IMG/VR virus record: IMGVR_UViG_3300042462_000689
Length of the DNA: 64,000 nucleotides
Reading direction: 5' to 3' (one strand)
Source: a virus
Made by a program: the position numbers and the translations under genes. Below the pieces are notes generated by a model. That model did not search any database. It had not been told where the DNA came from and saw only the letters and a list, made by a program, of their open reading frames with translations. Below, piece after piece: positions 22,026-62,171 of the stretch (within the stretch, counting starts at the first letter, position 1; each line of letters begins with the position of its first letter).

Positions 22026-25000
22026 ATGTCCGACCATGAGGATCTACCAAAGCTCAAAAAGGCGAAGTCGTTTTCTGACGACGCCAATTGGCATGAAAAG
22101 CATGTACTTCTCCGAAGCATGCTCGCCGAACACCCGGACCGCTGGGAGGTGGACCAGGATGACGGGCACCAGCATGCTGTCGGGATTCGGCACGAATCGG
22201 GATTCAAATTCCATCTGCCACGGGAGCAGGTGGTCGGGCCGGCGACGCCTCCCGCTGAGAAGTCCGCCATGTCCCTGATGCCCTCGCTTTCCGATATGGC
22301 AACCAGCCGCCTGCTGAAGGCGATCTCCGCGGATCAGGTAAAGCTGGGGCCGGATGGAGAGATCATCGTAGCACCCGAGGAAGAAGCCCCGCTGACACCG
22401 GAAGAGCAGGCGCAGGAGGATATGACCGCCATTTCTGAGCAGGTGGCGGCGATGCAACGGCAGCGGAAGGCCGCGCGTCCTGCTTATTACGATCCCAGGG
22501 ATTGGACTGCCCAAGTAGCCAGCGCATTGGGATTGCCCGATGATGGCAAATACCACCCACGCACCGTCAAATCCGCAGGCAGCAAATGTCCCAATTGCCA
22601 TACGACGGAGGGGTATTTGAAACTGGCTGGCGAGGCGATCATCTGCAGGGAATGCAACCGGCGCTCGGATACCACGGAATGGGAGGAGGCAAATCTGAAG
22701 ACATCTGGCGGCGAAAAAAAAGCATCCACCGAGGCAAAGCCCGCCCCGCTCACCGGCCCCGAGGGCATCAAGGCAAAGCTCGCCTCCCTCGACCTGGAGG
22801 CTCTCGCCGCCGAGCAGCATGCCTACATCAAATCAGGCAAGGTCTCCAAGCGCGACAAGGCCGTCAAAATCCTCAACATCATCGAGGGTCTCAAGCGCAA
22901 CAAGGTGAAGCCGGAGGAATTGATGATTCACGCCGTGCCAGTCATCCCGGCAGTGTATCGCCCATTTGCAATGGCGGGTGGCACGTTCATCCCCGGCGAC
23001 GCCAATGAACTCTACAAGGACCTGTTCACGTTCCAGAAGCTGCACCGGGAGACTCACAAAGAATTGGGACCGGAGGCAGGCAATGAGGCCGGCCTGCAGG
23101 TTTACAATGCGGTGAAGGCGCTTTACGGATATGGGGAGCCGGTGAATCCAAAGACGGCTTCTCGCGGAGTGACTGGGTTCTTCAAATCACTGGTGGGCAC
23201 TTCGCCCAAATACAGCTTCTACCAGCGGGCGCTCATTTCGAAACCGATGGATAATATTTCTAGATCGACGGCCAGCGTGAATCCGGATCTGGGAGTTGAC
23301 GAAGTCGGATTGCCTGATGACCATGCTTGGAAGGGCTTTGCTCCTTATGTGCAAGCGCGATTGGTCGGGCTGGGCTATGCACCCGGCGACGCTGTAAAAG
23401 CCATTCGCGATCGGACGCCTTACGCATTGCAGGCTTTACAGAAAGAGATGGAAGTGCGGCCCGTGATTATTTCAAGGGCACCGGCGTGGCACAAATTCAA
23501 TGCTGTAGCACAGCGTGCGCGTATGGTGAAAGGGGACTCCATCCAGGCCAATCCATTTGTTACGACGGGAATGAACCTAGACTTCGATGGAAATTGCGTC
23601 AAAGTCGGCACAAAGATAATGGTTGCATGGCATCCAGATACATGTTCATCCGCGCGCCTAATGAAACACGCCAATACACAAATCAGACTCAACACCAAGG
23701 ACACCTACGTCGCGTGCATCCCAATTGAGGATTTCCCGCATCTCAAGGGCACCGCAAAGAAGGATCGCAACGGGGCGGATGTTTATGAGGTGCCTGCTGG
23801 GCTCAAGGTGCTAAGCCCGGTAGAGGGCAAAGGAATGCAATGGTGTGATGTCACGCACTTCACCCACGAGAAGGACACGCCCTGCATGGATGTCGTTTGC
23901 GTCACCGGGCATTCCGTGACGGTCTCAGCCAATGAATCCATTGCCGCCTTCAATTCGGAGACCGGGCTGCTGGAGAAGATCAAACCCGCAGATGCCGTGG
24001 GCCGTCTCGTTCCGCTGTCTCGGTCTGCCGCGCTTCCCAAGACGACCATGCGCGTGTCCGACAATCCCTACGAATTCGGTTGGCTGCTCGGTGCCTTCCT
24101 TTCGGATGGCTGGATTGATGAGAACGGGATGGTGGGCTACACCAAGTCCAATGCGGAACACCGCATTCGGTTTGCGGCGGCCTGCTCTTCATACCTCGGG
24201 GACACGGAAGCCGCATTCCTGCGCATCCAGAATTACGCGGAGACGCATGGTGCGGACAATCACAGCGGGATTTGCGGGGACAGTTCGAAGATTCACATCC
24301 GCCTGTTGAAAGAACACGCAGCAAAAGCTCCTCGGTATGCGCAGCTTCAGGGTATTTTCCGGGACTGCTACGACCCTGCCAAATTGGAACGTGATTTGAC
24401 CACAGAGCGTTCCTGCCTCTACAAGCGGCTGCCGCAAATCACATGGGCACTTCCAATTGAAGCACTGTATGGGCTGCTGGCCGGGCTGTTTGACGGAGAC
24501 GGTAGCATTTCCAGTTCCGAGAAACCCGGACGCAAACACCCGGCGTTTACATGCAATCTGGCGACCTCATCTCCGCATCTGCGGGACTCCGTGATGGCGC
24601 TGGCCCAATTTCTCGGCATTCGCTGCAGCTCCACAGCGCAGGAGCCGAAGAAAGGGCGTGCGCAGACTCATACGAGTTATGTGGTGAATTTCTCGGTGAT
24701 CGATATCCGACGAATTGCCCCGTGGTTACAACTCACCAAAGCCAATGCCGCGGCGACCTTGGCGCATTTGCGGTCCGTGCCGGATATGCAGGACACGCGA
24801 GATGTTGTGCCTGTGCTGAAGGCGGAGCTGGAGGAATTACGAAAGAACAAGGACTTGCCCTGTCGTAATTCCATAACGCAAACGATTTCGAAACTCAAAC
24901 ATACCATCGCCCCTGTGGTCAGTCGTCAATGGGTGTTTGCGCTGCCGGAGGCGGATTTGAATCGGGTGCCGGCCTTGCGGCAACGCGCTGAGACCACCTC

Positions 25001-25412
25001 AGTGCTCTGGACTACAATTGAGTCTGCGACACCAGCAGGGAAGCATGACGTGTATGACCTTGCAGTGCCCGAGACGAAGGTCTTCGCAATTGCCAACGGG
25101 TTGGTGGTGTTCGACACCATGAACGCCCATGTGGTTGCGAGCCCGGAAGCAGTCAAAGAGGCCTACGACAAATTGCTCCCCAGCAAGATGGTCTTTGGGA
25201 TCCGTGACCCTGATGCCGTAATCAACAATTTGAAGCACGAGCAAATCCTCGGGTCGTATGCTGCAAGCCAGCGCCCTTCGCAGAAACAATGGAAGTTCGG
25301 CTCAAAGGACGAGGCCATCAGCGCATTAAAGAACGGCACCGTACCCCTGCATGATGACGTGACATTTCCAGGCAGCGAGAAACTCGGCACGCCTTTGCAT
25401 GTCGAGGTGTAA
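22026..25412 (+). CDS. rpoC: DNA-directed RNA polymerase beta' subunit, catalytic (N-terminal/middle) half, intein-containing
   Basis: KPEELMIHAVPVIPAVYRP, LISKPMDNISRS, VIISRAPAWHK and NLDFDG(N) match beta' regions B-D; continues TMNAHV...ILGSY after the intein. Confidence 0.93.
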   Translation: MSDHEDLPKLKKAKSFSDDANWHEKHVLLRSMLAEHPDRWEVDQDDGHQHAVGIRHESGFKFHLPREQVVGPATPPAEKSAMSLMPSLSDMATSRLLKAISADQVKLGPDGEIIVAPEEEAPLTPEEQAQEDMTAISEQVAAMQRQRKAARPAYYDPRDWTAQVASALGLPDDGKYHPRTVKSAGSKCPNCHTTEGYLKLAGEAIICRECNRRSDTTEWEEANLKTSGGEKKASTEAKPAPLTGPEGIKAKLASLDLEALAAEQHAYIKSGKVSKRDKAVKILNIIEGLKRNKVKPEELMIHAVPVIPAVYRPFAMAGGTFIPGDANELYKDLFTFQKLHRETHKELGPEAGNEAGLQVYNAVKALYGYGEPVNPKTASRGVTGFFKSLVGTSPKYSFYQRALISKPMDNISRSTASVNPDLGVDEVGLPDDHAWKGFAPYVQARLVGLGYAPGDAVKAIRDRTPYALQALQKEMEVRPVIISRAPAWHKFNAVAQRARMVKGDSIQANPFVTTGMNLDFDGNCVKVGTKIMVAWHPDTCSSARLMKHANTQIRLNTKDTYVACIPIEDFPHLKGTAKKDRNGADVYEVPAGLKVLSPVEGKGMQWCDVTHFTHEKDTPCMDVVCVTGHSVTVSANESIAAFNSETGLLEKIKPADAVGRLVPLSRSAALPKTTMRVSDNPYEFGWLLGAFLSDGWIDENGMVGYTKSNAEHRIRFAAACSSYLGDTEAAFLRIQNYAETHGADNHSGICGDSSKIHIRLLKEHAAKAPRYAQLQGIFRDCYDPAKLERDLTTERSCLYKRLPQITWALPIEALYGLLAGLFDGDGSISSSEKPGRKHPAFTCNLATSSPHLRDSVMALAQFLGIRCSSTAQEPKKGRAQTHTSYVVNFSVIDIRRIAPWLQLTKANAAATLAHLRSVPDMQDTRDVVPVLKAELEELRKNKDLPCRNSITQTISKLKHTIAPVVSRQWVFALPEADLNRVPALRQRAETTSVLWTTIESATPAGKHDVYDLAVPETKVFAIANGLVVFDTMNAHVVASPEAVKEAYDKLLPSKMVFGIRDPDAVINNLKHEQILGSYAASQRPSQKQWKFGSKDEAISALKNGTVPLHDDVTFPGSEKLGTPLHVEV
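23595..25115 (+). mobile_element. intein (507 aa) with LAGLIDADG endonuclease, ending in Asp
   Basis: starts CVKVGT after DFDGN; LGAFLSDG and LAGLFDGDG motifs; block F VYDLAVPETKVFAIANGLVVFD followed by Thr+1. Confidence 0.92.
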
Positions 25413-38003: not shown

Positions 38004-41000
38004 ATGCCGACACGCTACTTCAAAAACTCGGTTGACCAAAACTGGGACGTCCCCGGGAACTGGTGGGCAGACGCCGCCTGCACTGAGGGCTTTTCCGGCA
38101 CCCTGACCGGCGTGAATGTCACGGACACGGACACGGAAGTGACCTGCGACAGCACGGCGGGTCTTGTGGTGGGGCGCCCTATCACCGGCACCGGCATAGA
38201 CACAGGCACTACGGTCGCGAGCATCACGGATGGCACGACGTTTGAACTGAGCCTGCCAGCCATCGCCAACGGCAGTAGCAACCTCACTTGTGAATTGCAT
38301 GGGATTCCCGTGACCGCCGATGATGTCGTCATCGCGACTGGCAACGGCACGGTGGTTGCCCTCCCTTCGGCGGACGTGCTCGGGTTGGTGACGGTGAATG
38401 GGGACAGCGTGCTGGATGTAGGTATGTGGCCGTCTGTGGGGCTATCAGCCGCTAGCTTCGAGTTCAATGACACCAGTTACAATTCAGGCTACATCGCCGG
38501 AAACTGCACCTTCAACGACTCTAGTGCCAACTACGAGGGCAATATCGCCGGAAACTGCACCTTCAATGATTCCAGCTTCAGCTACGGCTCCATCACCGGA
38601 GACTGTACCTTCAACGATACTAGTAGCACCACCCTCGATGTCACCGGAAACTGCACCTTCAATGATTCCAGCTTCAACAATTGGGGCTACATCGCCGGAG
38701 ACTGCACCTTCAATGGCTCCAGCTACAACGGTTCTTCTTCCGCCTCCATCACCGGAGACTGTACCTTCAACGACAGCAGCTACAACGACGGCACCATCAC
38801 CGGTGAGGTCGCCTTCAACGGCAACAGTCGTAACGGCAACAATTCTCCTGTGGTAAACGGCATCATCAACGGGGACTTTACGTGGGGTAGTTCCAATTAC
38901 AACTACGGAATCATCAACGGTGACTGCGTAGGCGGCGCGGTCTTAAATGAGTACCCTGGCGTTATCAACGGAAACTGCACGGTAGCCTCCGGCGGGACGG
39001 TTGCCATCAACGGATGCGTCATCAACGGCGACTGTGACTTCCTTAATGGAGGTTACTCCTTTGGCAGCAGTGCGGTTATTACCGGCAACGTCACGTTCTC
39101 TGGTAGTAGCTATGGCGGTATGTATGGCGGAACCATCAACGGAGATGTTACCTTCAACGACTCTACCGCACTGCAAGGCAGTGGCACCATTACCGGAACA
39201 GTCACCTTCAACAACAGCACCCAAAAAACAGGGGGCTACATATATGGTAATCCAACCTTCAACGATTCCAGTGCTTACGCATGGGGCAGCTCAGGCACAA
39301 TCTTTGGTGATCCAACTTTTAATGACTACACGACGTGTAGTGGCGACATTACCGGAAATGTTACCTTAAACGATAATGCCTATTACTCGGGTGACACAAC
39401 GGGCAATGTTTCGTTCACAATGACGACGTTCGTGAGTGACCCTCTGAACAGCGTATACGGCGGATACGTGAGCGGTACGGTAGATTTTCCAAACGGGGCC
39501 ACCTTCACGCTGGCAAACTCAGAATCATGGATTGTGGACGCTTCCGCATGGACAGGCACACTTGCATGGGAGTTTAACGACACCAGCTACAACGCCAGCG
39601 GAGCCACCGTCACAGGAAACCCCACCTTTAACGACACCAGCTACAACGCCAGCGGAGCCACCATCACCGGCAATCCAACCTTCAATGACTCCAGCTACAA
39701 CCAAGGCTACATCTCTGCGACCTCTGTCACCTTCAATGATTACAGCTACAACCGCAGTGACAGCGGTAATCCGCTAGTCGCCACCTCTGTCACCTTCAAC
39801 GATTACAGCTTCAACGGTCTCGACAACGTCGCAGGCGGTTACATCACCGGAGACTGCACATTTAACGACTTCAGCTTCAACGAATACAACGGCTACATCA
39901 CCGGCAACGCCACGTTCACCGCAGCTGAATACTCGGCACTGGGGGGAAATTATTATTACGGCAGCGACCCACAGCGGGGCACCGTCTCAGGTACCGTCAC
40001 CTTTACCAGCCTCACGCCAGTCAAGTTCACGATGGCGGGAAATGTGTGGTATTCGGACACAACCGGATGGGTGTTTGATACCGCTGGTCAGAATTGGGAG
40101 TTCAACGGCGAGAGCTACGTCCTCGGCACCATCACCGGCGATTGTGTGTTCAACGGCGGTGACAGTTATTCAATCCCCTACCAAATCCAAGGAACGGTCA
40201 ATGGCAACTGTGTGTTCAATGTCTACAACGCCATCGGAACCTCTGGTGTCGTCAACGGCGATTGTGTGTTCAACAACGCTAAGGTCGACGGTACCGTCAA
40301 CGGAAACTGCACGTTCAACGGCTACAGTTGGAGCACTAGTACTAGCAACATCACTGGAGACTGCGAATTTTATGGTAACTCCGCTCAGGGCACCATCACT
40401 GGCGACGTCACGTTCTATAGTGGCTACAACACCGGAACCATCACCGGCAACGTCACGTTCTCTGGTGGCTACAACAGCGGCACCATCACCGGCAACGCAT
40501 CGTTCACCGACACTGCATTCTCCACAGCTACCACAGGATTTTTCAACCCACAGCAAGGCACCGTCACAGGCGGCACCGTGGACTTCCCGAATGGAGCTAC
40601 ATTCACTCTGGCAGGCTCTGAGGTATGGACTACGGACGCCTTTGCATGGACAGGCACACTCGCATGGGTGTTCAACGACACCAGTGCCAACAGCTGGGGT
40701 AGCACCATCACTGGCACCGTCACGTTCAACGATTCCAGCTACAACGGTGGCAGCGGCGTCACCATCATCGGCGACCCAACATTCAACGATAACAGCTACA
40801 ACGGCTACAGCACCATCACCGGCAATCCAACCTTCAACGACAACAGCTACAATGCTAGCGGAGGCGGCATCACCGGCAATCCAACATTCAACGATTACAG
40901 CTACACCACCGGCACCATCACAGGCAACTGCACGTTCAACGATACTAGCTACGTCGATGACAACGGAATCATCACCGGCAACGCCACCTTCACCAACACC

Positions 41001-41534
41001 GCCTTCTCCACGGCAACCACTGGATTCTACAACCCACAGCAAGGCACCGTTTCAGGCACCGTGGATTTCCCGAATGGAGCCACCTTCACGCTGGCAAGCG
41101 GAGAAGTATGGGCTACGGACGCCTCCATATGGACTGGCACACTCGCATGGGAGTTCAACGACACCAGCTACAACGCCGAGCGCATCACCGGAGATTGCAC
41201 CTTTAATGGTTACAGCTACGGCACAGTATCCGGTTCCGTCATCGTCGGCAACTGCACCTTCAACGGCTCCAAATACCACGGTAATGGCACCATCACTGGT
41301 AATGTCTCATTCCGTGAATCTTCCTACAGCGGAGCCAGCGGCATCACAGGAAACGTGACATTCTACGATTCCAGCTACAACTCCAGCGGTGTCATCATCA
41401 CCGGCAACGGCATCATCCGCCAGCACGCCGCTGCATTCGTCGCATGGCGGGACTACGCCACGTCCGCCTACATCACCGGCACGCTCACCTTACAATTCCC
41501 CGAGATGGACATCCTCGGCACCGGCCTGCTATAA
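38004..41534 (+). CDS. large beta-solenoid (ITGNCTFNDSSYN-repeat) protein, probable tailspike/adhesin
   Basis: dozens of roughly 20-aa GxxTFN(D/G) repeats; Gly/Thr/Asn/Ser-rich. Confidence 0.8.
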   Translation: MPTRYFKNSVDQNWDVPGNWWADAACTEGFSGTLTGVNVTDTDTEVTCDSTAGLVVGRPITGTGIDTGTTVASITDGTTFELSLPAIANGSSNLTCELHGIPVTADDVVIATGNGTVVALPSADVLGLVTVNGDSVLDVGMWPSVGLSAASFEFNDTSYNSGYIAGNCTFNDSSANYEGNIAGNCTFNDSSFSYGSITGDCTFNDTSSTTLDVTGNCTFNDSSFNNWGYIAGDCTFNGSSYNGSSSASITGDCTFNDSSYNDGTITGEVAFNGNSRNGNNSPVVNGIINGDFTWGSSNYNYGIINGDCVGGAVLNEYPGVINGNCTVASGGTVAINGCVINGDCDFLNGGYSFGSSAVITGNVTFSGSSYGGMYGGTINGDVTFNDSTALQGSGTITGTVTFNNSTQKTGGYIYGNPTFNDSSAYAWGSSGTIFGDPTFNDYTTCSGDITGNVTLNDNAYYSGDTTGNVSFTMTTFVSDPLNSVYGGYVSGTVDFPNGATFTLANSESWIVDASAWTGTLAWEFNDTSYNASGATVTGNPTFNDTSYNASGATITGNPTFNDSSYNQGYISATSVTFNDYSYNRSDSGNPLVATSVTFNDYSFNGLDNVAGGYITGDCTFNDFSFNEYNGYITGNATFTAAEYSALGGNYYYGSDPQRGTVSGTVTFTSLTPVKFTMAGNVWYSDTTGWVFDTAGQNWEFNGESYVLGTITGDCVFNGGDSYSIPYQIQGTVNGNCVFNVYNAIGTSGVVNGDCVFNNAKVDGTVNGNCTFNGYSWSTSTSNITGDCEFYGNSAQGTITGDVTFYSGYNTGTITGNVTFSGGYNSGTITGNASFTDTAFSTATTGFFNPQQGTVTGGTVDFPNGATFTLAGSEVWTTDAFAWTGTLAWVFNDTSANSWGSTITGTVTFNDSSYNGGSGVTIIGDPTFNDNSYNGYSTITGNPTFNDNSYNASGGGITGNPTFNDYSYTTGTITGNCTFNDTSYVDDNGIITGNATFTNTAFSTATTGFYNPQQGTVSGTVDFPNGATFTLASGEVWATDASIWTGTLAWEFNDTSYNAERITGDCTFNGYSYGTVSGSVIVGNCTFNGSKYHGNGTITGNVSFRESSYSGASGITGNVTFYDSSYNSSGVIITGNGIIRQHAAAFVAWRDYATSAYITGTLTLQFPEMDILGTGLL

Positions 41535-45124: not shown

Positions 45125-46330
45125 ATGTCTGTCACGACTGAACCATCCACAAGCAAGCTCAACGCGATAATTGCGGCCCTGACCGGCAGCGCACCCGACA
45201 CGCTGGATACTTTGCAGGAGCTGGCTGCCGCGATTAACAATGATCCGGATTTTTTCAACACACTGGTGACGCTGGAGGGCAGCAACACCTACACCGGCAC
45301 GACGAACACCTTCACGCTGCCCACGACGACCGGCACGACCACGACCAGCGGCATCGCGGTTGCGGCGAACAGCCTCACGACAGGAACGGGCGCGGACTTC
45401 TCAAGCACCAGCGCGAGCAGCACGGCGGGCGAAGTCGTGCGGATCGCCAAGACCGGAACGGGCACGCTCAATCAGGCACTCACGCTCACGGCGAGCGGAG
45501 GCACCGCCAATGTCGCACTGAACGCAACAGCAGGACATGTATTGGTGCCGGACGGCTCATACGCCTATAACACTTCAGTATCGCCCTCAATTGGCCGTAG
45601 CGCGGTTTCGGCAAATTCGACAAACCAAGCAGGATTTCTTCTTGGATCAAACTCGCTCACATTGCTGACTAATTCAGTTCGCGGGTTAAGTTTTAGCGGT
45701 TACGGGTCGTTTGGCAATGGCCTGCTGATTACTCCGGTGGGTGGCAACACTACATTCTCCGGAACGGTTGTTTCAACAACCGTCTTTCAAGCCGCAGAAG
45801 ACAAAACATCAACCCCCAACACGGGCACATTCAGAGGCGGCGGCGGGTCAGGGACAAACATCGCGGGTGGCGCGCTGCACATTCAGGGCGGCGCTTCGAC
45901 GGGCAGCGCGGCAGGCGGGTCAATTTTGATTCGCACGACGCCAGCAGGAGGCTCTGGTTCTTCCGCGAATGCCGCCGTGACCGCAATCACGATTGACTCG
46001 ACGCAGGCGGTGACGCTTGCCGCTACCCTAGCCGTGACCGGCGCGAGCACGCTGACGGGGCTTCTCACTGCTAACGGCGGCATCACGCTAGGAAATGCGC
46101 AGAACATCGCTTTCAGCACGACGACCGGAACGAAGATAGGCACGGCAACAACGCAGAAACTCAGCTTCTGGAATTCGACGCCAATCGTTCAACCGACAAC
46201 GTCAGTTGCCAGTGCGACCTTTGCTCACACGGGCGGGGGGGGGGCAAATATCAAAACGGACGACACGTTTGACGGCTACACGATTGCACAAGTAGTCAGA
46301 GCGCTGCGAAACGCCGGACTCTTAGCCTAA
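45125..46330 (+). CDS. tail-fibre-like protein
   Basis: APDTLDTLQELAAAINNDPDF, GGSSTG..AGG.I.I.T and KIGTATTQKLSFWNSTPIVQP fibre modules. Confidence 0.8.
   Translation: MSVTTEPSTSKLNAIIAALTGSAPDTLDTLQELAAAINNDPDFFNTLVTLEGSNTYTGTTNTFTLPTTTGTTTTSGIAVAANSLTTGTGADFSSTSASSTAGEVVRIAKTGTGTLNQALTLTASGGTANVALNATAGHVLVPDGSYAYNTSVSPSIGRSAVSANSTNQAGFLLGSNSLTLLTNSVRGLSFSGYGSFGNGLLITPVGGNTTFSGTVVSTTVFQAAEDKTSTPNTGTFRGGGGSGTNIAGGALHIQGGASTGSAAGGSILIRTTPAGGSGSSANAAVTAITIDSTQAVTLAATLAVTGASTLTGLLTANGGITLGNAQNIAFSTTTGTKIGTATTQKLSFWNSTPIVQPTTSVASATFAHTGGGGANIKTDDTFDGYTIAQVVRALRNAGLLA
46235..46244. repeat. G10 homopolymer inside the fibre gene
   Basis: ACG GGC GGG GGG GGG GCA. Confidence 0.9.
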
Positions 46331-47177: not shown

Positions 47178-50100
47178 TTGAAGGGCATTCGACTCCTTCT
47201 CGAACACCAGCTCCCGCACGGCCTGCGGGACTACGGCCGCAATTACGACGCCAAGGGCTTCAACCAATTGCTGGCCCGTGCTGCGCGTGAGCATCCCGAG
47301 GAGTATTCCAGCATCATCGGGAAGATTGCGGACGTAGGGCGCAATGCCAGCTACGACCAGGGCGAATCCCTGACGCTGGAAGATCTCAAGCCTGTCATCG
47401 ACAAGGACTCCATCTTCAAAGGGATGGAGGCGCGAATTGCCCAAGCAAAGAAAGGCGCGAATACCGACGCCGAGTTCCGCACGAAGCGGATGAAGATCTG
47501 GCAGGACACCAATGAGCATGTCACCAGGGAGACGCAGCGGGAGGGCCTGCGCCGCGGCAACAACATTGCCTACTCGGTATTGAGCGGAGCCCGAGGCAAG
47601 GCGCCGCAATTGAACTCGATGATTTCGGCACCAGGGATATTCCAGGATGGGAATGGTACGCCAATTGAGATGTACGCGACGCACTCGCATGCGGAGGGAT
47701 TGCGTCCGGCGGAATTCCTGGCCAGCACCTACGGGGCGCGTAGTGCCGTTATTTCGACGAAAAAAGCCACGGCCGTCGGCGGTGACTTCTCCAAGCAACT
47801 GTCGTCCCTGCTTTCCACGCTCAATACCACCAGGAAAAGCACCGGCTCGGACAATGGCGTGGATCTGGACATTGAAGATCCCAGCCTCAAATACCGAGTG
47901 CTCGCCAAGCCCGCAGGAGGCTTCAGCGCCGGCACCATGATCACAACGCCGGTGCTGGCGGAGTTGCGCCGCAAGAAGGTGCCCTACGTCATTGCCCACA
48001 GCCCAATCACTGATGACTCTCCGGAGGGTATCGCATCGGAAAGCGTGGGCGGAATGGATGGTGGGCACCTGTATGGTATTGGACGTACGGCAGGCATCAC
48101 CGCCGCAAACTCAATTGGCGAGCCGATTACCCAATCTGCGCTGAACGTGAAACATTGCCTCAAGGAAGGCACCATGGTGCGAATGGCCGATTTGTCCGTG
48201 AAGCCGATTCAGGAGATCAAAGCCGGCGAATGGGTCCTGGGTTCTGATATCACAGGCGCCACTTTCCCAGTGAAAGTGAAATACGTATGGGATCAAGGCA
48301 TTCAGCCGGTTCAGCGCTATATCTACAAGCAAGGGCAGACAAAACGCCGGCTGACCTTGGAGTGCACGGACACGCACATCGTGCTGAGCAATAAGAAAAC
48401 GACGGGTGAGTATCTGCGCAAAAAATATGCAGGAAAATACGGCTTCGGATGTCCGGAAAATTATTTAGCCTGCAAACTTCCTGCGGGTTATCCCCATAAA
48501 AACATTGCGGCAGTGCTGCCTGTAGAATGTAAGATTGATGCGGCACTGGAAACGCACGAACCATTGGCTGTCCTGTGTGGAGCACTGCTCGGCGACGGTA
48601 TTCGCTGGGATTCTGAAAATCATGCGGATGCGTCCATTCGCTTTTCGTGTGCGGATCCAATGCTCATTGCGGATTTGCAAACCCCGCTGGCAACTGCCGG
48701 ACTCGCACTGAAGAAAAGAAAGCGCAGCCATGATTACGCAATAGTCCACACATCGACTCAAGGGTGGGGAGACCGCAGCGCAACGACTGGGCAGATGGTG
48801 AAGACCGCTACCCGGCACCCAATGAAGGTGAAGATGCTGGAGTGGGGAATTGCGAACAAGTATGCCCACGAGAAGCGGGTGCCCGTGCAGGCCTTGTATT
48901 GGGATAAAGCCTCTGTGTCTGCTTTGCTCGCAGGATTTATTGCCACGGACGGTAGCATTGGAAAAAACAAAGCCGGCCATGTTTTCATCAGCTTCGCCTC
49001 CACGAGTCGCGGGATGTTAGAGGATTTGCGACGTCTGTTGGAGCTTCGTCTTTGTGTGTACACTTCGGAAATCACCAACACGGCAAAAGCGGGAACTCGC
49101 AGCTACAAACATGATGCGTGGGCATTTGCAATTACACGACAAGATCAGATTCAGAAGCTGGTAGGCATGCTGCCTCCAATTCCGGGGTGCAAAGGCCCAA
49201 GGACAAAAGACCTACTGGAGAATGCAAATTACGAATTGCGGAATCCCGAGCTATTTTACCGCGCCAAGCGCGAATCAATTACTGAGATCGGCAACCACCA
49301 TTGCTGGGACATCACAGTGGATCATCCGGACGAGCTGTTCGTTTTGGAGAACGGATTGATTGTGAAAAACACCGCAGGAGTCGCCGGTAAAAAGAGGGAG
49401 TTCTCGGGAATGAACGCCATCAATGCATTCGTCCAAAGCCCCGAAGCCTTCCCCGACAAAGCCCCCGTGTCCGAATTGGAAGGCACCGTGCATTCCATCA
49501 AGGATGCCCCGCAGGGAGGCAAGTTCGCTTACGTGGGCGACCATGAGCACTACATTCCCGAGGGCCTGGGTCTGCTGGTAAAGCCAGGCGACAAGCTGGA
49601 GGCCGGTGACGCCTTGAGCGAGGGCATTGTCGATCCCAGGGACATTGTCCGGCTGCGGGGATTGGGCGAGGGCCGCCGCTATTACGCCACCCGTCTCAAG
49701 CAATTGCTCGATGACAGCGGCATCAAGACGGATTTGAAGCACACCGAGATGGTGGCGCGCGGAGCATTGGACCATGTGCGCATTACGGATGCGGAAGGCC
49801 TGGGCGACTACCTGCCCGATGACACCGTCTCCTACAACAAGCTGGCGGCCTCCTACGTGCCGCCGGCCGATTCGGAGCGTGTGCATCCAGGCCAGGGCGT
49901 CGGTCGGTATTTGCAGGCCCCGGCCCTCCATTACACCATCGGAACCAAATTGACCCCGAGGATGGCGGAGCATCTGGCTTCCCGCGGGTATGACAAAGTC
50001 GCGGTGGCAAATGATGCGCCGGGATTTGAGCCGGACATGGATCGTCTGCGGACGGCGGGAAGTGCGTCAACGGACTGGGCCTCGAAACTGACCAGCAGCT

Positions 50101-50234
50101 ACGTCGCAAAAAACATGGCGGAGTCGGCAATGCGAGGGGAGGACAGCGATTTTAGTTCGAATATTTCACCATACCCGAGACTCGCAATAGGAAAAAACTT
50201 TGCCAATGATGTAGAGAAGACTGGCAAATTTTGA
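47178..50234 (+). CDS. rpoC: DNA-directed RNA polymerase beta' subunit, C-terminal half (bridge helix, trigger loop), intein-containing
   Basis: SGARG, EGLRPAEFLASTYGAR..V.STK.ATA.GG (bridge helix), AANSIGEPITQ.AL.VKH (trigger loop), DPRDIVRLRG, KHTEMVAR; TTG start with AGGAGG upstream. Confidence 0.93.
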   Translation: MKGIRLLLEHQLPHGLRDYGRNYDAKGFNQLLARAAREHPEEYSSIIGKIADVGRNASYDQGESLTLEDLKPVIDKDSIFKGMEARIAQAKKGANTDAEFRTKRMKIWQDTNEHVTRETQREGLRRGNNIAYSVLSGARGKAPQLNSMISAPGIFQDGNGTPIEMYATHSHAEGLRPAEFLASTYGARSAVISTKKATAVGGDFSKQLSSLLSTLNTTRKSTGSDNGVDLDIEDPSLKYRVLAKPAGGFSAGTMITTPVLAELRRKKVPYVIAHSPITDDSPEGIASESVGGMDGGHLYGIGRTAGITAANSIGEPITQSALNVKHCLKEGTMVRMADLSVKPIQEIKAGEWVLGSDITGATFPVKVKYVWDQGIQPVQRYIYKQGQTKRRLTLECTDTHIVLSNKKTTGEYLRKKYAGKYGFGCPENYLACKLPAGYPHKNIAAVLPVECKIDAALETHEPLAVLCGALLGDGIRWDSENHADASIRFSCADPMLIADLQTPLATAGLALKKRKRSHDYAIVHTSTQGWGDRSATTGQMVKTATRHPMKVKMLEWGIANKYAHEKRVPVQALYWDKASVSALLAGFIATDGSIGKNKAGHVFISFASTSRGMLEDLRRLLELRLCVYTSEITNTAKAGTRSYKHDAWAFAITRQDQIQKLVGMLPPIPGCKGPRTKDLLENANYELRNPELFYRAKRESITEIGNHHCWDITVDHPDELFVLENGLIVKNTAGVAGKKREFSGMNAINAFVQSPEAFPDKAPVSELEGTVHSIKDAPQGGKFAYVGDHEHYIPEGLGLLVKPGDKLEAGDALSEGIVDPRDIVRLRGLGEGRRYYATRLKQLLDDSGIKTDLKHTEMVARGALDHVRITDAEGLGDYLPDDTVSYNKLAASYVPPADSERVHPGQGVGRYLQAPALHYTIGTKLTPRMAEHLASRGYDKVAVANDAPGFEPDMDRLRTAGSASTDWASKLTSSYVAKNMAESAMRGEDSDFSSNISPYPRLAIGKNFANDVEKTGKF
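48156..49370 (+). mobile_element. intein (405 aa) with LAGLIDADG endonuclease
   Basis: CLKEGTMVRMAD start, GALLGDG and LAGFIATDG motifs, WDITVDHPDELFVLENGLIVKN end, Thr+1. Confidence 0.93.
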
Positions 50235-60917: not shown

Positions 60918-62171
60918 ATGATGACGCCCGGCATATTGGGAGCACGGATGAGCATGGTGAAGCTGGCTGCTCCGGCTCTGCCTTCTGTCTCTTCACCACC
61001 AGCAGGACGGTCCGCATTCAAATGGCCAAAATCAATCGGTGACGTATGGGACCGCGTGACAGGTAAGACTCCACCACCCTCATTCCTTACGGGACCAAGT
61101 CAATTACCACAGCCTCCCACACCCACCCCACCACCGCCAACAAGTCAGGTGGTAGGCGGTGGTTTTAGGGCAGGCGTCGCGCCGCAAGCAACAGGCGCCC
61201 CCGCTGTGAAGCCAATTCCCTCCGCATTTGCCGGGCCTACGCTGTCCTCCGTGACCCCAGCATATTACAAGCAACCGTATTACGGAAATAACCTGCAAAG
61301 CGAAATGGAAAAGGCGCATGCCTACAATACAGCATCCGGTTTGCCAGGAGATCAAAATAAATGGACGCAGCCGGTGCCGGTGTTGCGCAATGATGCGGAT
61401 GCCGCAGTTTTCGGGCCACATTACGACCCGCTCGCTGACAGCGTCCACATGTGGGGTTCGGACGAGAGACGGAAGTTTACAGACAGCGTCCTCAAGGATC
61501 CAGAGGGTCTACGAGATTCGAACATGACAGCCAGGCAGGCGGCTAAATCGTTAATGGATGATGAGGATTCGCTGAAGCATGAGGCGTATCACGGAGCGCT
61601 TGCAAGTCCGCCGGGTACCGGGGTGGATGCTTACGACACTGCAGCTTTACGCCTGGAGCATCCAGACAAATATGTCCCCACGTATGCGACCCCATATCCT
61701 GATCAGCCGCGCATGGGAAGTGGGCTGCATTGGTCGAGGCGTCCTTCTGGAGAACGTCCGGTGCATTTCCGCGAGACGCTGAAGCAACAGAACAAATTGC
61801 CTGTGTATGGCAACCTGCATCATGATGTGCACTCTGCCGAGATGCGGGATTACATGTCGCAATTGCAGGAGCATCAATACCAGAACACCGGGAAGCGATT
61901 TGAAAGCCCGCAGGATTACGACAAGTTTTTACAGGGAGTAAATCCCACGCAACCCGATGAGTCGCAATTCGAGAAGGGGATTCAGCAATACCCACTGGAT
62001 GCCCAGCGCATGTTCCGGCAGATGCGCAAAACAAATCAGCGCAGCCCGGAAATCTACGACAACATCCGTAACTGGCAGCGCACTGTGGTTCCGGGCATTG
62101 TGCAGAACGGACAGGAGATCAACAAGACTGCCTCATTGCGGGAACTGGCCCGTCGGTTGGCAAAGCGCTGA
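60918..62171 (+). CDS. probable internal virion protein with HExxH (zincin-like) motif
   Basis: degenerate leader MTPGILGARMSMVKLA; LKHEAYHG; C-terminal NKTASL. Confidence 0.65.
   Translation: MMTPGILGARMSMVKLAAPALPSVSSPPAGRSAFKWPKSIGDVWDRVTGKTPPPSFLTGPSQLPQPPTPTPPPPTSQVVGGGFRAGVAPQATGAPAVKPIPSAFAGPTLSSVTPAYYKQPYYGNNLQSEMEKAHAYNTASGLPGDQNKWTQPVPVLRNDADAAVFGPHYDPLADSVHMWGSDERRKFTDSVLKDPEGLRDSNMTARQAAKSLMDDEDSLKHEAYHGALASPPGTGVDAYDTAALRLEHPDKYVPTYATPYPDQPRMGSGLHWSRRPSGERPVHFRETLKQQNKLPVYGNLHHDVHSAEMRDYMSQLQEHQYQNTGKRFESPQDYDKFLQGVNPTQPDESQFEKGIQQYPLDAQRMFRQMRKTNQRSPEIYDNIRNWQRTVVPGIVQNGQEINKTASLRELARRLAKR

What the first reader, a model, noticed from the sequence alone, without database searches (positions are those of the whole stretch)
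23574..25130. Reciprocal Asn/Asp swap at an intein inserted in the RNAP catalytic triad: possible splicing-coupled protein editing
Seen: the beta' active-site motif reads N-L-D-F-D-G-N (AAT at 23592) | C-V-K...V-V-F-D (GAC at 25113) | T-M-N-A-H. Established: multisubunit RNAPs need all three Asp of NADFDGD to bind Mg2+. Inteins normally end in (His)-Asn; Asp-ending inteins are rare (e.g. Chy RIR1). Here the extein has Asn where Asp is required, and the intein has Asp where Asn is expected. Canonical splicing would give DFDGN-T, predicted to be crippled, although the rest of the gene and its partner look intact. Inference: the two changes are coupled. Either the extein Asn(-1) amide supplies the cleavage chemistry normally done by the terminal Asn and is converted to Asp, restoring DFDGD, or splicing plus deamidation acts as an activation switch. 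This would also avoid the premature N-terminal cleavage known for Asp at position -1.
Basis: partly seen in the sequence, partly recalled or inferred. Interest (0 to 1): 0.9.

Follow-up and report, generated by a model that had tools for sequence, protein, structure and literature searches.

The report
Rewired intein masks polymerase catalytic aspartate
A mobile self-splicing insert (intein) sits inside the magnesium-binding DFDGD loop of a large phage's RNA polymerase, and in its whole, apparently undescribed family the polymerase's "invariant" third aspartate is encoded as asparagine, so either maturation re-creates the aspartate or the enzyme works without it.

Summary
The window encodes NLDFDG-N(AAT 23592) | C...VVF-D(GAC 25113) | TMNAH in one intact 1128-aa beta' N-part gene.

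It is not an error or a one-off:
- I collected 48 sequences (about 45 distinct) of this intein family, 30-40% identical to each other.
- All read DxDGN|Cys1.
- Every complete one ends [F/Y/W]-Asp|Thr/Ser.
- Glu (once Asp) replaces the "most conserved" block-B His.

Comparison with 218 beta' homologues:

| Allele class at this site | Triad |
|---|---|
| Intein-free | 154/154 DxDGD |
| This intein family | 18/18 DxDGN |
| Other inserts | 37 DxDGD, 9 DxNGD |

- Ten phylogenetically independent intein gains or losses all switch Asn and Asp together.
- One complete 178-kb phage has this allele as its only beta'.
- Mini-inteins without a nuclease keep the pairing.

So Asn(-1) is selected, and the enzyme made from it must work. 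Whether Asn is converted to Asp (my best guess, about 0.4) or tolerated (about 0.35) cannot be settled by sequence.

I found no paper describing this. This scan has already noted the same family on other DNA (for example e1-5685898, e1-1940409, e1-5664030).

The parts
22026..23594 (+). N-extein: N-terminal part of a split phage RNA polymerase beta' subunit. It ends in the catalytic loop N-L-D-F-D-G-N. Public gene calls start at the ATG at 22119 (P0122).
   Evidence: PF00623 on aa 476-523; PF04997 weak; phrog_25354; the profile aligns to bacterial beta' up to NADFDGD.
23592..23594 (+). Asn(-1), codon AAT, at the position of the third catalytic Asp of NADFDGD.
   Evidence: HMMER aligns it to the third Asp of bacterial beta'. 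It is Asn in all 48 family sequences and Asp in 154/154 intein-free alleles.
23595..25115 (+). Intein, 507 aa: a HINT splicing domain with a nested LAGLIDADG homing endonuclease. Starts at Cys1 (TGC 23595-23597).
   Evidence: Foldseek: 7qss E 6e-17, 1dq3 E 1e-16, PI-SceI.
23925..23939 (+). Block B, S111-A-N113-E114-S115. Glu114 occupies the position of the catalytic His B:10, and Asn113 is invariant.
   Evidence: N113, E114, S115 invariant. (hhalign puts S-x-N-E-S on the canonical T-E-H-H-N). ([ST]xNES in 47 of 48). (STNDS in the one exception, P0287).
24042..24929 (+). LAGLIDADG endonuclease domain (approximate limits). Both catalytic Asp are present: D171 at 24105-24107 and D302 at 24498-24500.
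   Evidence: PF14528, PF05204; S170-D171-G172 and G301-D302-G303 invariant; helical core, residues 158-466.
25050..25091 (+). Block F, V-Y-D488-L-A-V-P-E-T-K-V-F-A-I. Asp F:4 is kept; no His stands at F:13.
   Evidence: V486 and D488 invariant, K495 nearly invariant.
25095..25115 (+). Block G, N-G-L-V-V-F506-D507. An aromatic residue replaces the penultimate His, and Asp (GAC 25113-25115) replaces the terminal Asn.
   Evidence: All complete family members end [F/Y/W]-D.
25116..25412 (+). C-extein, T(+1)-M-N-A-H-V..., 98 aa plus the stop codon. It continues the beta' catalytic loop.
   Evidence: (88% identical to the tail of P0131). Position +1 is Thr in 94% of family alleles (Ser in one) against Thr in 45% of intein-free alleles.
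47178..50234 (+). Partner gene: the beta' C-terminal part (Rpb1 domain 5). It is intact and carries a second, more canonical intein (48156-49370).
   Evidence: (same phrog_25354, positions 626-941).

Best explanation
Shown, or strongly inferred from sequence:
- This is a live, mobile member of a large intein family specialised for the DFDGD|T site of phage beta' subunits.
- The family has lost the canonical catalytic set. His B:10 is Glu, His G:6 is an aromatic residue, Asn G:7 is Asp, and there is no F:13 His.
- It keeps Cys1, Ser/Thr B:7, Asp F:4 and Thr/Ser(+1).
- It always comes with Asn encoded at extein position -1, so Asn(-1) is part of the element's working active site (substrate-assisted).
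- Cys1 and Thr/Ser(+1) are conserved, nuclease-less mini-inteins keep the same pairing, and one complete phage has this allele as its only beta'. The precursor must therefore splice to a working polymerase.

Inferred, not shown:
- The encoded Asn is a masked Asp. The amide is what this intein needs beside Glu B:10 in the precursor.
- It is deamidated to Asp during or after splicing, restoring DFDGD.

Candidate routes, none tested:
(a) Glu-assisted attack of Cys1 or Thr(+1) on the Asn carboxamide with loss of ammonia, as in autocatalytic Lys-Asn isopeptide and Thr-Gln ester bonds, followed by hydrolysis.
(b) A succinimide between Asn(-1) and the Cys1 nitrogen that also activates the scissile bond.
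(c) Transfer of the amide nitrogen to the anhydride formed by the terminal Asp.
(d) Mg-assisted hydrolysis in the assembled active site.

A consequence would be that the intein cannot be deleted cleanly without killing the polymerase.
For: - Family-wide signature in 48 sequences at 30-40% intein identity: DxDGN|C, [ST]xN[E/D]S, [FYW]D|[TS].
- Glu sits at the His B:10 position.
- HINT plus LAGLIDADG fold. Both endonuclease Asp residues are intact.
- Triad counts: 154/154 intein-free alleles read DxDGD and 18/18 family alleles read DxDGN.
- The closest intein-free relative, P0131 (87-89% identical), reads DFDGD.
- On the extein tree the intein needs at least 11 state changes. There are 10 independent pairs, and all switch Asn with the intein.
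- IMG/VR scan for intein-free DFDGNx[LIVM]N[LIVM]H: 8 hits, none an RNA polymerase.
- Mini-inteins of 248 and 290 aa without a nuclease keep N...D.
- The complete 178-kb phage G001 has one beta' catalytic domain, and it reads NADFDGN|C...WD|T.
- Position +1 is Thr in 94% of family alleles against 45% of intein-free ones. No other extein column tracks the intein, so there is no compensation in cis.
- The only triad substitution ever seen is Asp to Asn, which is isosteric and convertible: 27 alleles at two positions.
- Relatives at the same site with His or Lys at B:10 keep Asp(-1) even when they end in Asp.
- Established knowledge: each of the three Asp residues is needed for all activities of E. 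coli RNA polymerase (Sosunov et al. 2005, NAR 33:4202). I cite this from memory; the reference is listed, but the text is not held.
Against: - No result here reads the mature protein.
- No known intein changes an extein residue, and I found no paper on extein deamidation coupled to splicing.
- Every simple succinimide route from Asn(-1) gives Asn or isoAsn links, not Asp. This is my own chemical reasoning.
- Nine alleles with other inteins, some fully canonical (S1...HN|T), carry Asn at the second triad position, three residues from the junction. Splicing chemistry cannot reach that position. This favours a cause independent of the junction: tolerance, or spontaneous or Mg-assisted deamidation.
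- Spontaneous Asn-Thr deamidation is slow (weeks in model peptides, from memory) and gives mostly isoAsp.
- None of four phage records with this intein encodes an isoaspartyl methyltransferase.
Confidence: 0.4

Rival explanations
1. Asn is required only for splicing and stays Asn. The mature polymerase works with an Asp-Asp-Asn magnesium site, with the Asn carbonyl oxygen ligating Mg-A. Asn pairs by hydrogen bond with Glu B:10 in the precursor. Its cost to catalysis is accepted because reversion to Asp would break splicing.
For: - It is the simplest reading and needs no new chemistry.
- DxNGD alleles with canonical inteins show Asn at a triad position that splicing cannot touch.
- Asn appears at the second and third Asp, which bind Mg-A, and never at the first, bridging Asp (0 of 64).
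- Asn(-1) co-varies with Asn-Glu in block B, as expected for an active-site contact.
Against: - 0 of 154 intein-free alleles carry Asn, and no RNA polymerase appears among the IMG/VR hits for DFDGN.
- The triad is invariant in all multisubunit RNA polymerases, and single substitutions cripple E. coli RNA polymerase (Sosunov 2005, from memory).
- No compensating change was found in about 370 extein residues.
- The allele is the only beta' of a complete phage, so a strongly impaired enzyme is hard to accept.
Confidence: 0.35
2. The element only cleaves and does not ligate. Cyclisation of Asn(-1), or hydrolysis of the Cys1 thioester, leaves an N-fragment ending in Asn or isoAsn (isoAsn is Asp alpha-amide). 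Its free carboxylate serves as the third Mg ligand in a beta' that is split at the loop.
For: - The Asn-Cys dipeptide at the N-junction looks like a canonical C-terminal splice junction.
- Hydrolysis of a C-terminal succinimide yields isoAsn, which has a true Asp side chain (established intein chemistry).
- These phage beta' subunits are already split into several genes, and some relatives end a few residues after DFDGD.
Against: - Thr/Ser(+1) is conserved in all family alleles against 45% Thr in intein-free ones.
- Cys1 is invariant.
- Both point to transesterification and ligation.
- A break in the buried catalytic loop is unprecedented.
Confidence: 0.08
3. The insert no longer splices. It stays as a domain between Gly and the terminal Asp, and that Asp (D507), brought next to DFDG by the closed HINT fold, is the real third catalytic Asp.
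For: HMMER aligns both Asn(-1) and the terminal Asp, followed by T-x-N-x-H-V-P, to the same Asp of bacterial beta'. The canonical catalytic His and Asn residues are gone.
Against: - Cys1 and Thr/Ser(+1) are invariant across about 45 diverged alleles.
- The endonuclease is intact and the element is polyphyletic on the extein tree, so it is mobile.
- A 250-560-aa domain inside the buried DFDGD loop would block the active centre (structural knowledge of RNA polymerase).
Confidence: 0.05
4. These alleles give a dead or regulatory polymerase. They persist only through homing-endonuclease drive, or because a second polymerase does the work.
For: - Homing can carry a costly element, and the adjacent Asn codon would be co-converted with it.
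- First-reader notes on this window's own genome mention further RNA polymerase pieces about 85-115 kb away (untested).
Against: - Nuclease-less mini-inteins keep the pairing.
- The reading frames and extein conservation are intact across deep divergence.
- One complete genome has no other beta'.
- Only Asp-to-Asn changes are seen, never random substitutions.
Confidence: 0.07
5. Sequencing or assembly error at one or both codons.
For: Raw reads could not be examined.
Against: The identical protein stands on several contigs. The same two residues occur in about 45 independent alleles with both AAT and AAC codons.
Confidence: 0.01

Closest known systems
Class 1 inteins with a nested LAGLIDADG homing endonuclease (TliVMA 7qss, PI-PfuI 1dq3, PI-SceI 1vde)
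   Same: Same fold and layout. Shares Cys1, Ser/Thr B:7, Asp F:4, a Thr/Ser(+1) nucleophile and two LAGLIDADG motifs with catalytic Asp.
   Different: No His B:10 (Glu), no His G:6 (Phe/Tyr/Trp), no Asn G:7 (Asp) and no His F:13. It also has an obligatory Asn at extein -1.
Inteins ending in Asp or Gln (review PMC4031507: Asp and Gln can cyclise; CIV RNR and Pab/Mma Pol II have Gln; the Carboxydothermus RIR1 Asp intein of Amitai et al. 2004 is cited from memory)
   Same: A terminal residue other than Asn that can still cyclise to free the C-extein.
   Different: Those inteins keep His B:10 and place no known demand on the -1 residue. Here the Asp end comes with Glu B:10, an aromatic G:6 and Asn(-1).
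Tko CDC21-1 intein, the one functional intein known in 2014 without His B:10 (PMC4031507)
   Same: Activates the N-terminal junction without the block-B His.
   Different: It compensates with Lys58. The present family has an acid at B:10 and an amide at -1.
Sister intein lineages at the same beta' site: the 'GRF' family (DFDGD|[S/C]GRF..., block B SxDHS, end [Q/N]-D|T) and P0290 (DHDGD|C..., block B SRDKS, end F-D|T)
   Same: Same insertion point, homologous splicing and nuclease domains, terminal Asp.
   Different: They keep Asp(-1) and have His or Lys at B:10 with Asp at B:9. The present family has Asn at -1, Asn at B:9 and Glu at B:10.
Autocatalytic Lys-Asn isopeptide bonds (HK97 capsid, Gram-positive pilins) and Thr-Gln ester cross-links (own knowledge, not tested here)
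   Same: A carboxamide side chain beside a catalytic Glu/Asp in an aromatic pocket is attacked by a protein nucleophile with loss of ammonia. The three residues that define this family (Asn -1, Glu B:10, aromatic G:6) resemble that set.
   Different: No homology. Those reactions make cross-links, not a free Asp. The resemblance is a lead only.
Inteins in eukaryotic and giant-virus RNA polymerase genes (PMC1635734; PMC5784728)
   Same: Inteins in conserved motifs of multisubunit RNA polymerase subunits.
   Different: I did not open the text of these papers. No paper in the searched library holds DFDGN together with an intein or RNA polymerase.

Membership tests
Intein (HINT protein-splicing domain) | HINT fold with N- and C-terminal splicing subdomains | tested here: met
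   AlphaFold model with pLDDT 86. Top Foldseek matches are solved inteins 7qss, 1dq3, 2cw7 and 1vde at E 1e-17 to 1e-10. Pfam Intein_splicing is only weak (E 0.006).
Class 1 intein | Cys or Ser at position 1 | tested here: met
   TGC at 23595. Cys1 is present in all 48 family sequences.
Class 1 intein | Cys, Ser or Thr at +1 | tested here: met
   ACC at 25116. Thr (Ser in one) in all complete alleles, against 45% Thr in intein-free alleles.
Class 1 intein | [quoted passage not shown] | tested here: not met
   S111 stands at B:7 and Glu114 at B:10 (hhalign). The family has Glu in 47 of 48 sequences and Asp in one.
Class 1 intein | Terminal Asn G:7 preceded by His G:6 | tested here: not met
   Phe506-Asp507 here. 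[F/Y/W]-Asp in every complete family member.
Class 1 intein | Block F Asp F:4 (and usually His F:13) | tested here: inconclusive
   Asp488 in V-Y-D is invariant. No His follows in P-E-T-K-V-F-A. The F:13 register was judged by eye only.
Class 1 intein | Actual excision and ligation of the exteins | not testable with these tools
   Inferred from conserved nucleophiles, mobility and the sole-beta' genome.
Class 3 intein | Trp-Cys-Thr motif with a block-F Cys as first nucleophile and no Cys1/Ser1 | tested here: not met
   Cys1 is present. Block F reads V-Y-D, with no Cys at F:4.
LAGLIDADG homing endonuclease | Two LAGLIDADG helices, each ending in a catalytic acid | tested here: met
   PF14528 and PF05204. 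S-D171-G and G-D302-G are invariant. Fold matches I-DmoI and I-OnuI. Cleavage activity was not tested.
Multisubunit RNA polymerase beta' (largest subunit, double-psi beta-barrel) | Rpb1 domain 2 homology | tested here: met
   PF00623 E 7.5e-11. The profile matches bacterial beta' at E 1e-64.
Multisubunit RNA polymerase beta' (largest subunit, double-psi beta-barrel) | NADFDGD with three Asp | tested here: not met
   As encoded, the loop is N-L-D-F-D-G-N. The state in the mature protein is unknown.

The most novel reading that the evidence does not exclude
Protein-level editing. This intein family uses the extein's Asn(-1) carboxamide in its own chemistry and leaves Asp behind, so a catalytic residue of an essential enzyme is written in the genome as a different amino acid and is created only by splicing. 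The intein thereby becomes undeletable (addiction). A weaker form is that Asn at either triad position is a pro-residue, matured by Mg-assisted or time-dependent deamidation.
Probability: 0.3. Interest if true: 0.95.

Novelty: new variant of a known kind. Interest (0 to 1): 0.8.

Why it matters
The Asp triad of NADFDGD is among the most invariant features in biology. Here a whole mobile-element family, including the only polymerase of at least one complete phage, encodes Asn in its place, and only when the intein is present.

Either answer is new:
- A multisubunit RNA polymerase may work with an Asp-Asp-Asn metal site.
- Or an intein (or the active site itself) converts an encoded Asn into the catalytic Asp. 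That would be the first case of protein splicing changing an extein residue, and it would be a way for a selfish element to make itself indispensable.

The family is also a natural example of splicing without any of the canonical His or Asn residues. That is of direct use for understanding and engineering inteins. One expression construct and a mass spectrometer can test it.

Tried and rejected
- **Raw reads.** Independent contigs and family conservation stand in for it.
- **Own genome.** No whole genome is held for the window, and the NCBI contig behind L247 cannot be searched. A second RNA polymerase in this phage, reported in first-reader notes, is untested.
- **First DNA pattern.** The two jumbo-phage hits (L034, L070) are not RNA polymerases. 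I replaced it with a longer pattern.
- **The search for related loci** in IMG/VR gave only 4 loci.
- **Isoaspartyl methyltransferase.** PF01135 was absent from 4 phage records carrying this intein. No other deamidase family was searched.
- **Compensating extein changes.** None was found beyond +1 Thr and two conservative columns. Other subunits were not examined.
- **Sosunov 2005.** The paper is not held and is cited from memory.
- **Literature.** Searches with DFDGD, DFDGN, jumbo phage, aspartate triad and deamidation found no description.
- **Model geometry.** Model coordinates are not returned, so side-chain geometry around Asn(-1), Glu114 and Asp507 could not be measured.
- **Rejected explanation: charge clash.** The idea was that Asp(-1) cannot sit beside a terminal Asp. 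Sister families have both.
- **Rejected explanation: hitch-hiking.** The idea was that the Asn codon only travels with the intein. It is kept over 30-40% intein identity and in nuclease-less mini-inteins, although one transition would revert it.


Full report
**1. What is in the window**

ORF 22026..25412(+) is open for 1128 codons.
- Residues 1-523 are the N-terminal part of a split phage RNA polymerase beta'. Pfam RNA_pol_Rpb1_2 ends exactly at residue 523, and phrog_25354 matches.
- The chain then reads N-L-D-F-D-G-N | C-V-K-V-G ... A-N-G-L-V-V-F-D | T-M-N-A-H-V.
- The 507-aa insert holds LAGLIDADG_3 and Hom_end matches.
- It folds with pLDDT 86 into the architecture of solved LAGLIDADG inteins: TliVMA 7qss, PI-PfuI 1dq3 and PI-SceI.

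The identical protein is on record from several contigs.

**2. It is a family, and the odd residues are its signature**

Protein searches and IMG/VR scans gave 48 sequences (about 45 distinct) of this intein. They are 30-40% identical to the window's copy. They sit in split beta' genes of 750-1900 aa and in fused beta-beta' giants of 2000-3000 aa.
- Every one reads D-x-D-G-N | Cys.
- Every complete one ends [Phe/Tyr/Trp]-Asp | Thr (Ser once).
- 47 of 48 carry [S/T]-x-N-E-S in block B, and the exception has N-D-S.
- A profile-profile alignment with canonical inteins from the same site puts this Glu on His B:10. The JBC review calls His B:10 the most conserved intein residue, lacking in only one functional intein known in 2014 (PMC4031507).
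- Asp F:4 and both endonuclease Asp residues are invariant.
- Two mini-inteins (248 and 290 aa) that have lost the nuclease keep Asn(-1) and the terminal Asp.

**3. Asn is tied to the intein, not to the polymerase lineage**

I aligned 218 homologues on residues 240-522, leaving the third triad residue out, and classified them by what follows DxDG.

| Allele class at this site | Triad |
|---|---|
| Intein-free | 154/154 DxDGD |
| This family | 18/18 DxDGN |
| Other inserts | 37 DxDGD and 9 DxNGD |

- Fisher p for Asn against any insert is 4e-17.
- On a FastTree of the exteins, the family needs at least 11 state changes for 18 tips.
- 10 independent pairs on supported branches all switch Asn with the intein (p = 0.002).
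- The window's nearest relative, P0131 (87-89% identical), has no intein and reads DFDGD-Q.
- In IMG/VR, the pattern for an intein-free DFDGNx[LIVM]N[LIVM]H gave 8 hits, none an RNA polymerase.

**4. The product must work**

- IMG/VR record G001 is 178 kb, has terminal repeats and is rated 100% complete by CheckV. It has a single beta' catalytic domain, found both by PF00623 and by the window's own extein.
- That domain reads NADFDGN | C ... V-V-W-D | T inside a 2594-aa beta-beta' frame. No other D[F/Y]DGD exists in that genome.
- Position +1 is Thr in 94% of family alleles against 45% of intein-free ones, as expected if transesterification and ligation occur.
- No other column of about 370 extein residues tracks the intein, so there is no compensation in cis.
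- The partner beta' C-part in this window (47178-50234) is intact.

**5. What constrains the mechanism**

(a) Asp(-1) is not forbidden at this site. At least four other intein families keep DFDGD directly before Cys1 or Ser1 here:
- S...HN|T
- C...THQ|T
- C/S...LSN|T
- [S/C]GRF...[Q/N]D|T

(b) A terminal Asp does not by itself demand Asn(-1). The homologous 'GRF' family (block B S-x-D-H-S) and P0290 (S-R-D-K-S, ending F-D) end in Asp but keep Asp(-1). Asn(-1) therefore goes with Asn-Glu at B:9/B:10. An acid has replaced the His that normally touches the scissile bond, and the two neighbouring acids (B:9 and -1) have become amides.

(c) Nine alleles with unrelated inteins, some fully canonical, carry Asn at the second triad position (DxNGD). 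That is three residues from the junction and, necessarily, in an Asn-Gly dipeptide.

(d) Asp to Asn is the only triad substitution seen, and the first Asp is never changed.

**6. Reading**

I take the following as established.
- The window holds a live member of an undescribed, histidine-less, Asp-ending intein family.
- Asn(-1) belongs to that family's working active site.
- The encoded Asn is under selection. One transition would revert it, yet it is kept across deep divergence, across horizontal moves and after loss of the nuclease.

What becomes of Asn is open. My estimates:
- 0.4 that it ends as Asp. The arguments are that it is a masked residue, that the only change seen is isosteric and convertible, that Asn never survives without an intein, that the allele is the sole polymerase of a complete phage, and that there is no compensation.
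- 0.35 that it stays Asn and the enzyme copes. This is favoured by simplicity and by the DxNGD alleles.
- The remainder goes to cleavage-only, non-splicing and dead-enzyme readings.

The chemical routes I list are my own inference. These are Glu-assisted attack on the carboxamide as in isopeptide or ester cross-links, an Asn-Cys1 succinimide, amide transfer to the Asp anhydride, and Mg-assisted hydrolysis. The simple succinimide routes give Asn or isoAsn rather than Asp.

**7. Known or new**

Searches of about 8.4 million papers found nothing that joins an intein with DFDGN or with an Asn-for-Asp triad. They also found nothing on extein deamidation coupled to splicing.

This scan has met the same family before on other DNA (e1-5685898, e1-1940409, e1-5664030, e1-1940431, e1-5664019), with the same open alternative.
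- the independent-pair test;
- the sole-beta' complete genome;
- the link to block-B Asn-Glu through Asp(-1) sister lineages;
- the DxNGD alleles;
- the lack of cis compensation.

Noticed in passing
window 48156-49370 (within the gene at 47178-50234, + strand): A second intein (405 aa, Hint plus LAGLIDADG_3) sits in the beta' C-part, directly after the trigger-loop His (G-E-P-I-T-Q-S-A-L-N-V-K-H | C-L-K-E...L-I-V-K-N | T-A-G-V-A-G). It has Cys1, a canonical block-B T-D-T-H, a terminal Asn and Thr+1, with Lys instead of the penultimate His. It serves as an internal control: this phage also carries an ordinary Asn-ending intein.
   Followed up: partly
related proteins P0153, P0156, P0159, P0160, P0143, P0168, P0171, P0186, P0212: Nine beta' alleles with other inserts at the same site encode Asn at the SECOND triad position (D-F-N-G-D, an Asn-Gly dipeptide). 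At least three insert families are involved, some canonical (S1...HN|T). No intein-free allele does this (0 of 154).
   Followed up: partly
related proteins: The DFDGD|T site of these phage beta' genes is an intein hot spot: 64 of 218 homologues carry an insert. There are at least five families, ending in Asn, Gln (T-H-Q|T) or Asp ([Q/N]-D|T). Some start with Gln, Asp or Ala instead of Cys/Ser. Some genes stop 12-20 residues after DFDGD (for example A-Q-L-A-H-I-Q-L-L-R-K), which looks like short N-fragments of split inteins.
   Followed up: no
P0131 against window 22026-23594: The closest relative (87% identical, intein-free) has about 600 extra residues inserted in the poorly conserved N-terminal region of the beta' N-part. 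Other relatives fuse glucosaminidase, NUDIX or SET domains there. This suggests a variable cargo or virion-associated N-terminus.
   Followed up: no
window 38004-41534 and 45125-46330 (+ strand): A 1176-aa protein with bactofilin-type repeats (PF04519) and a tail-fibre-like protein lie between the two beta' genes. The polymerase genes are therefore interspersed with probable structural genes.
   Followed up: no
window 60918-62171 (+ strand): tblastn with fused beta-beta' relatives (P0175, P0223) hits 61797-62141. This is probably a beta-subunit fragment that neither Pfam nor PHROGs recognises.
   Followed up: no
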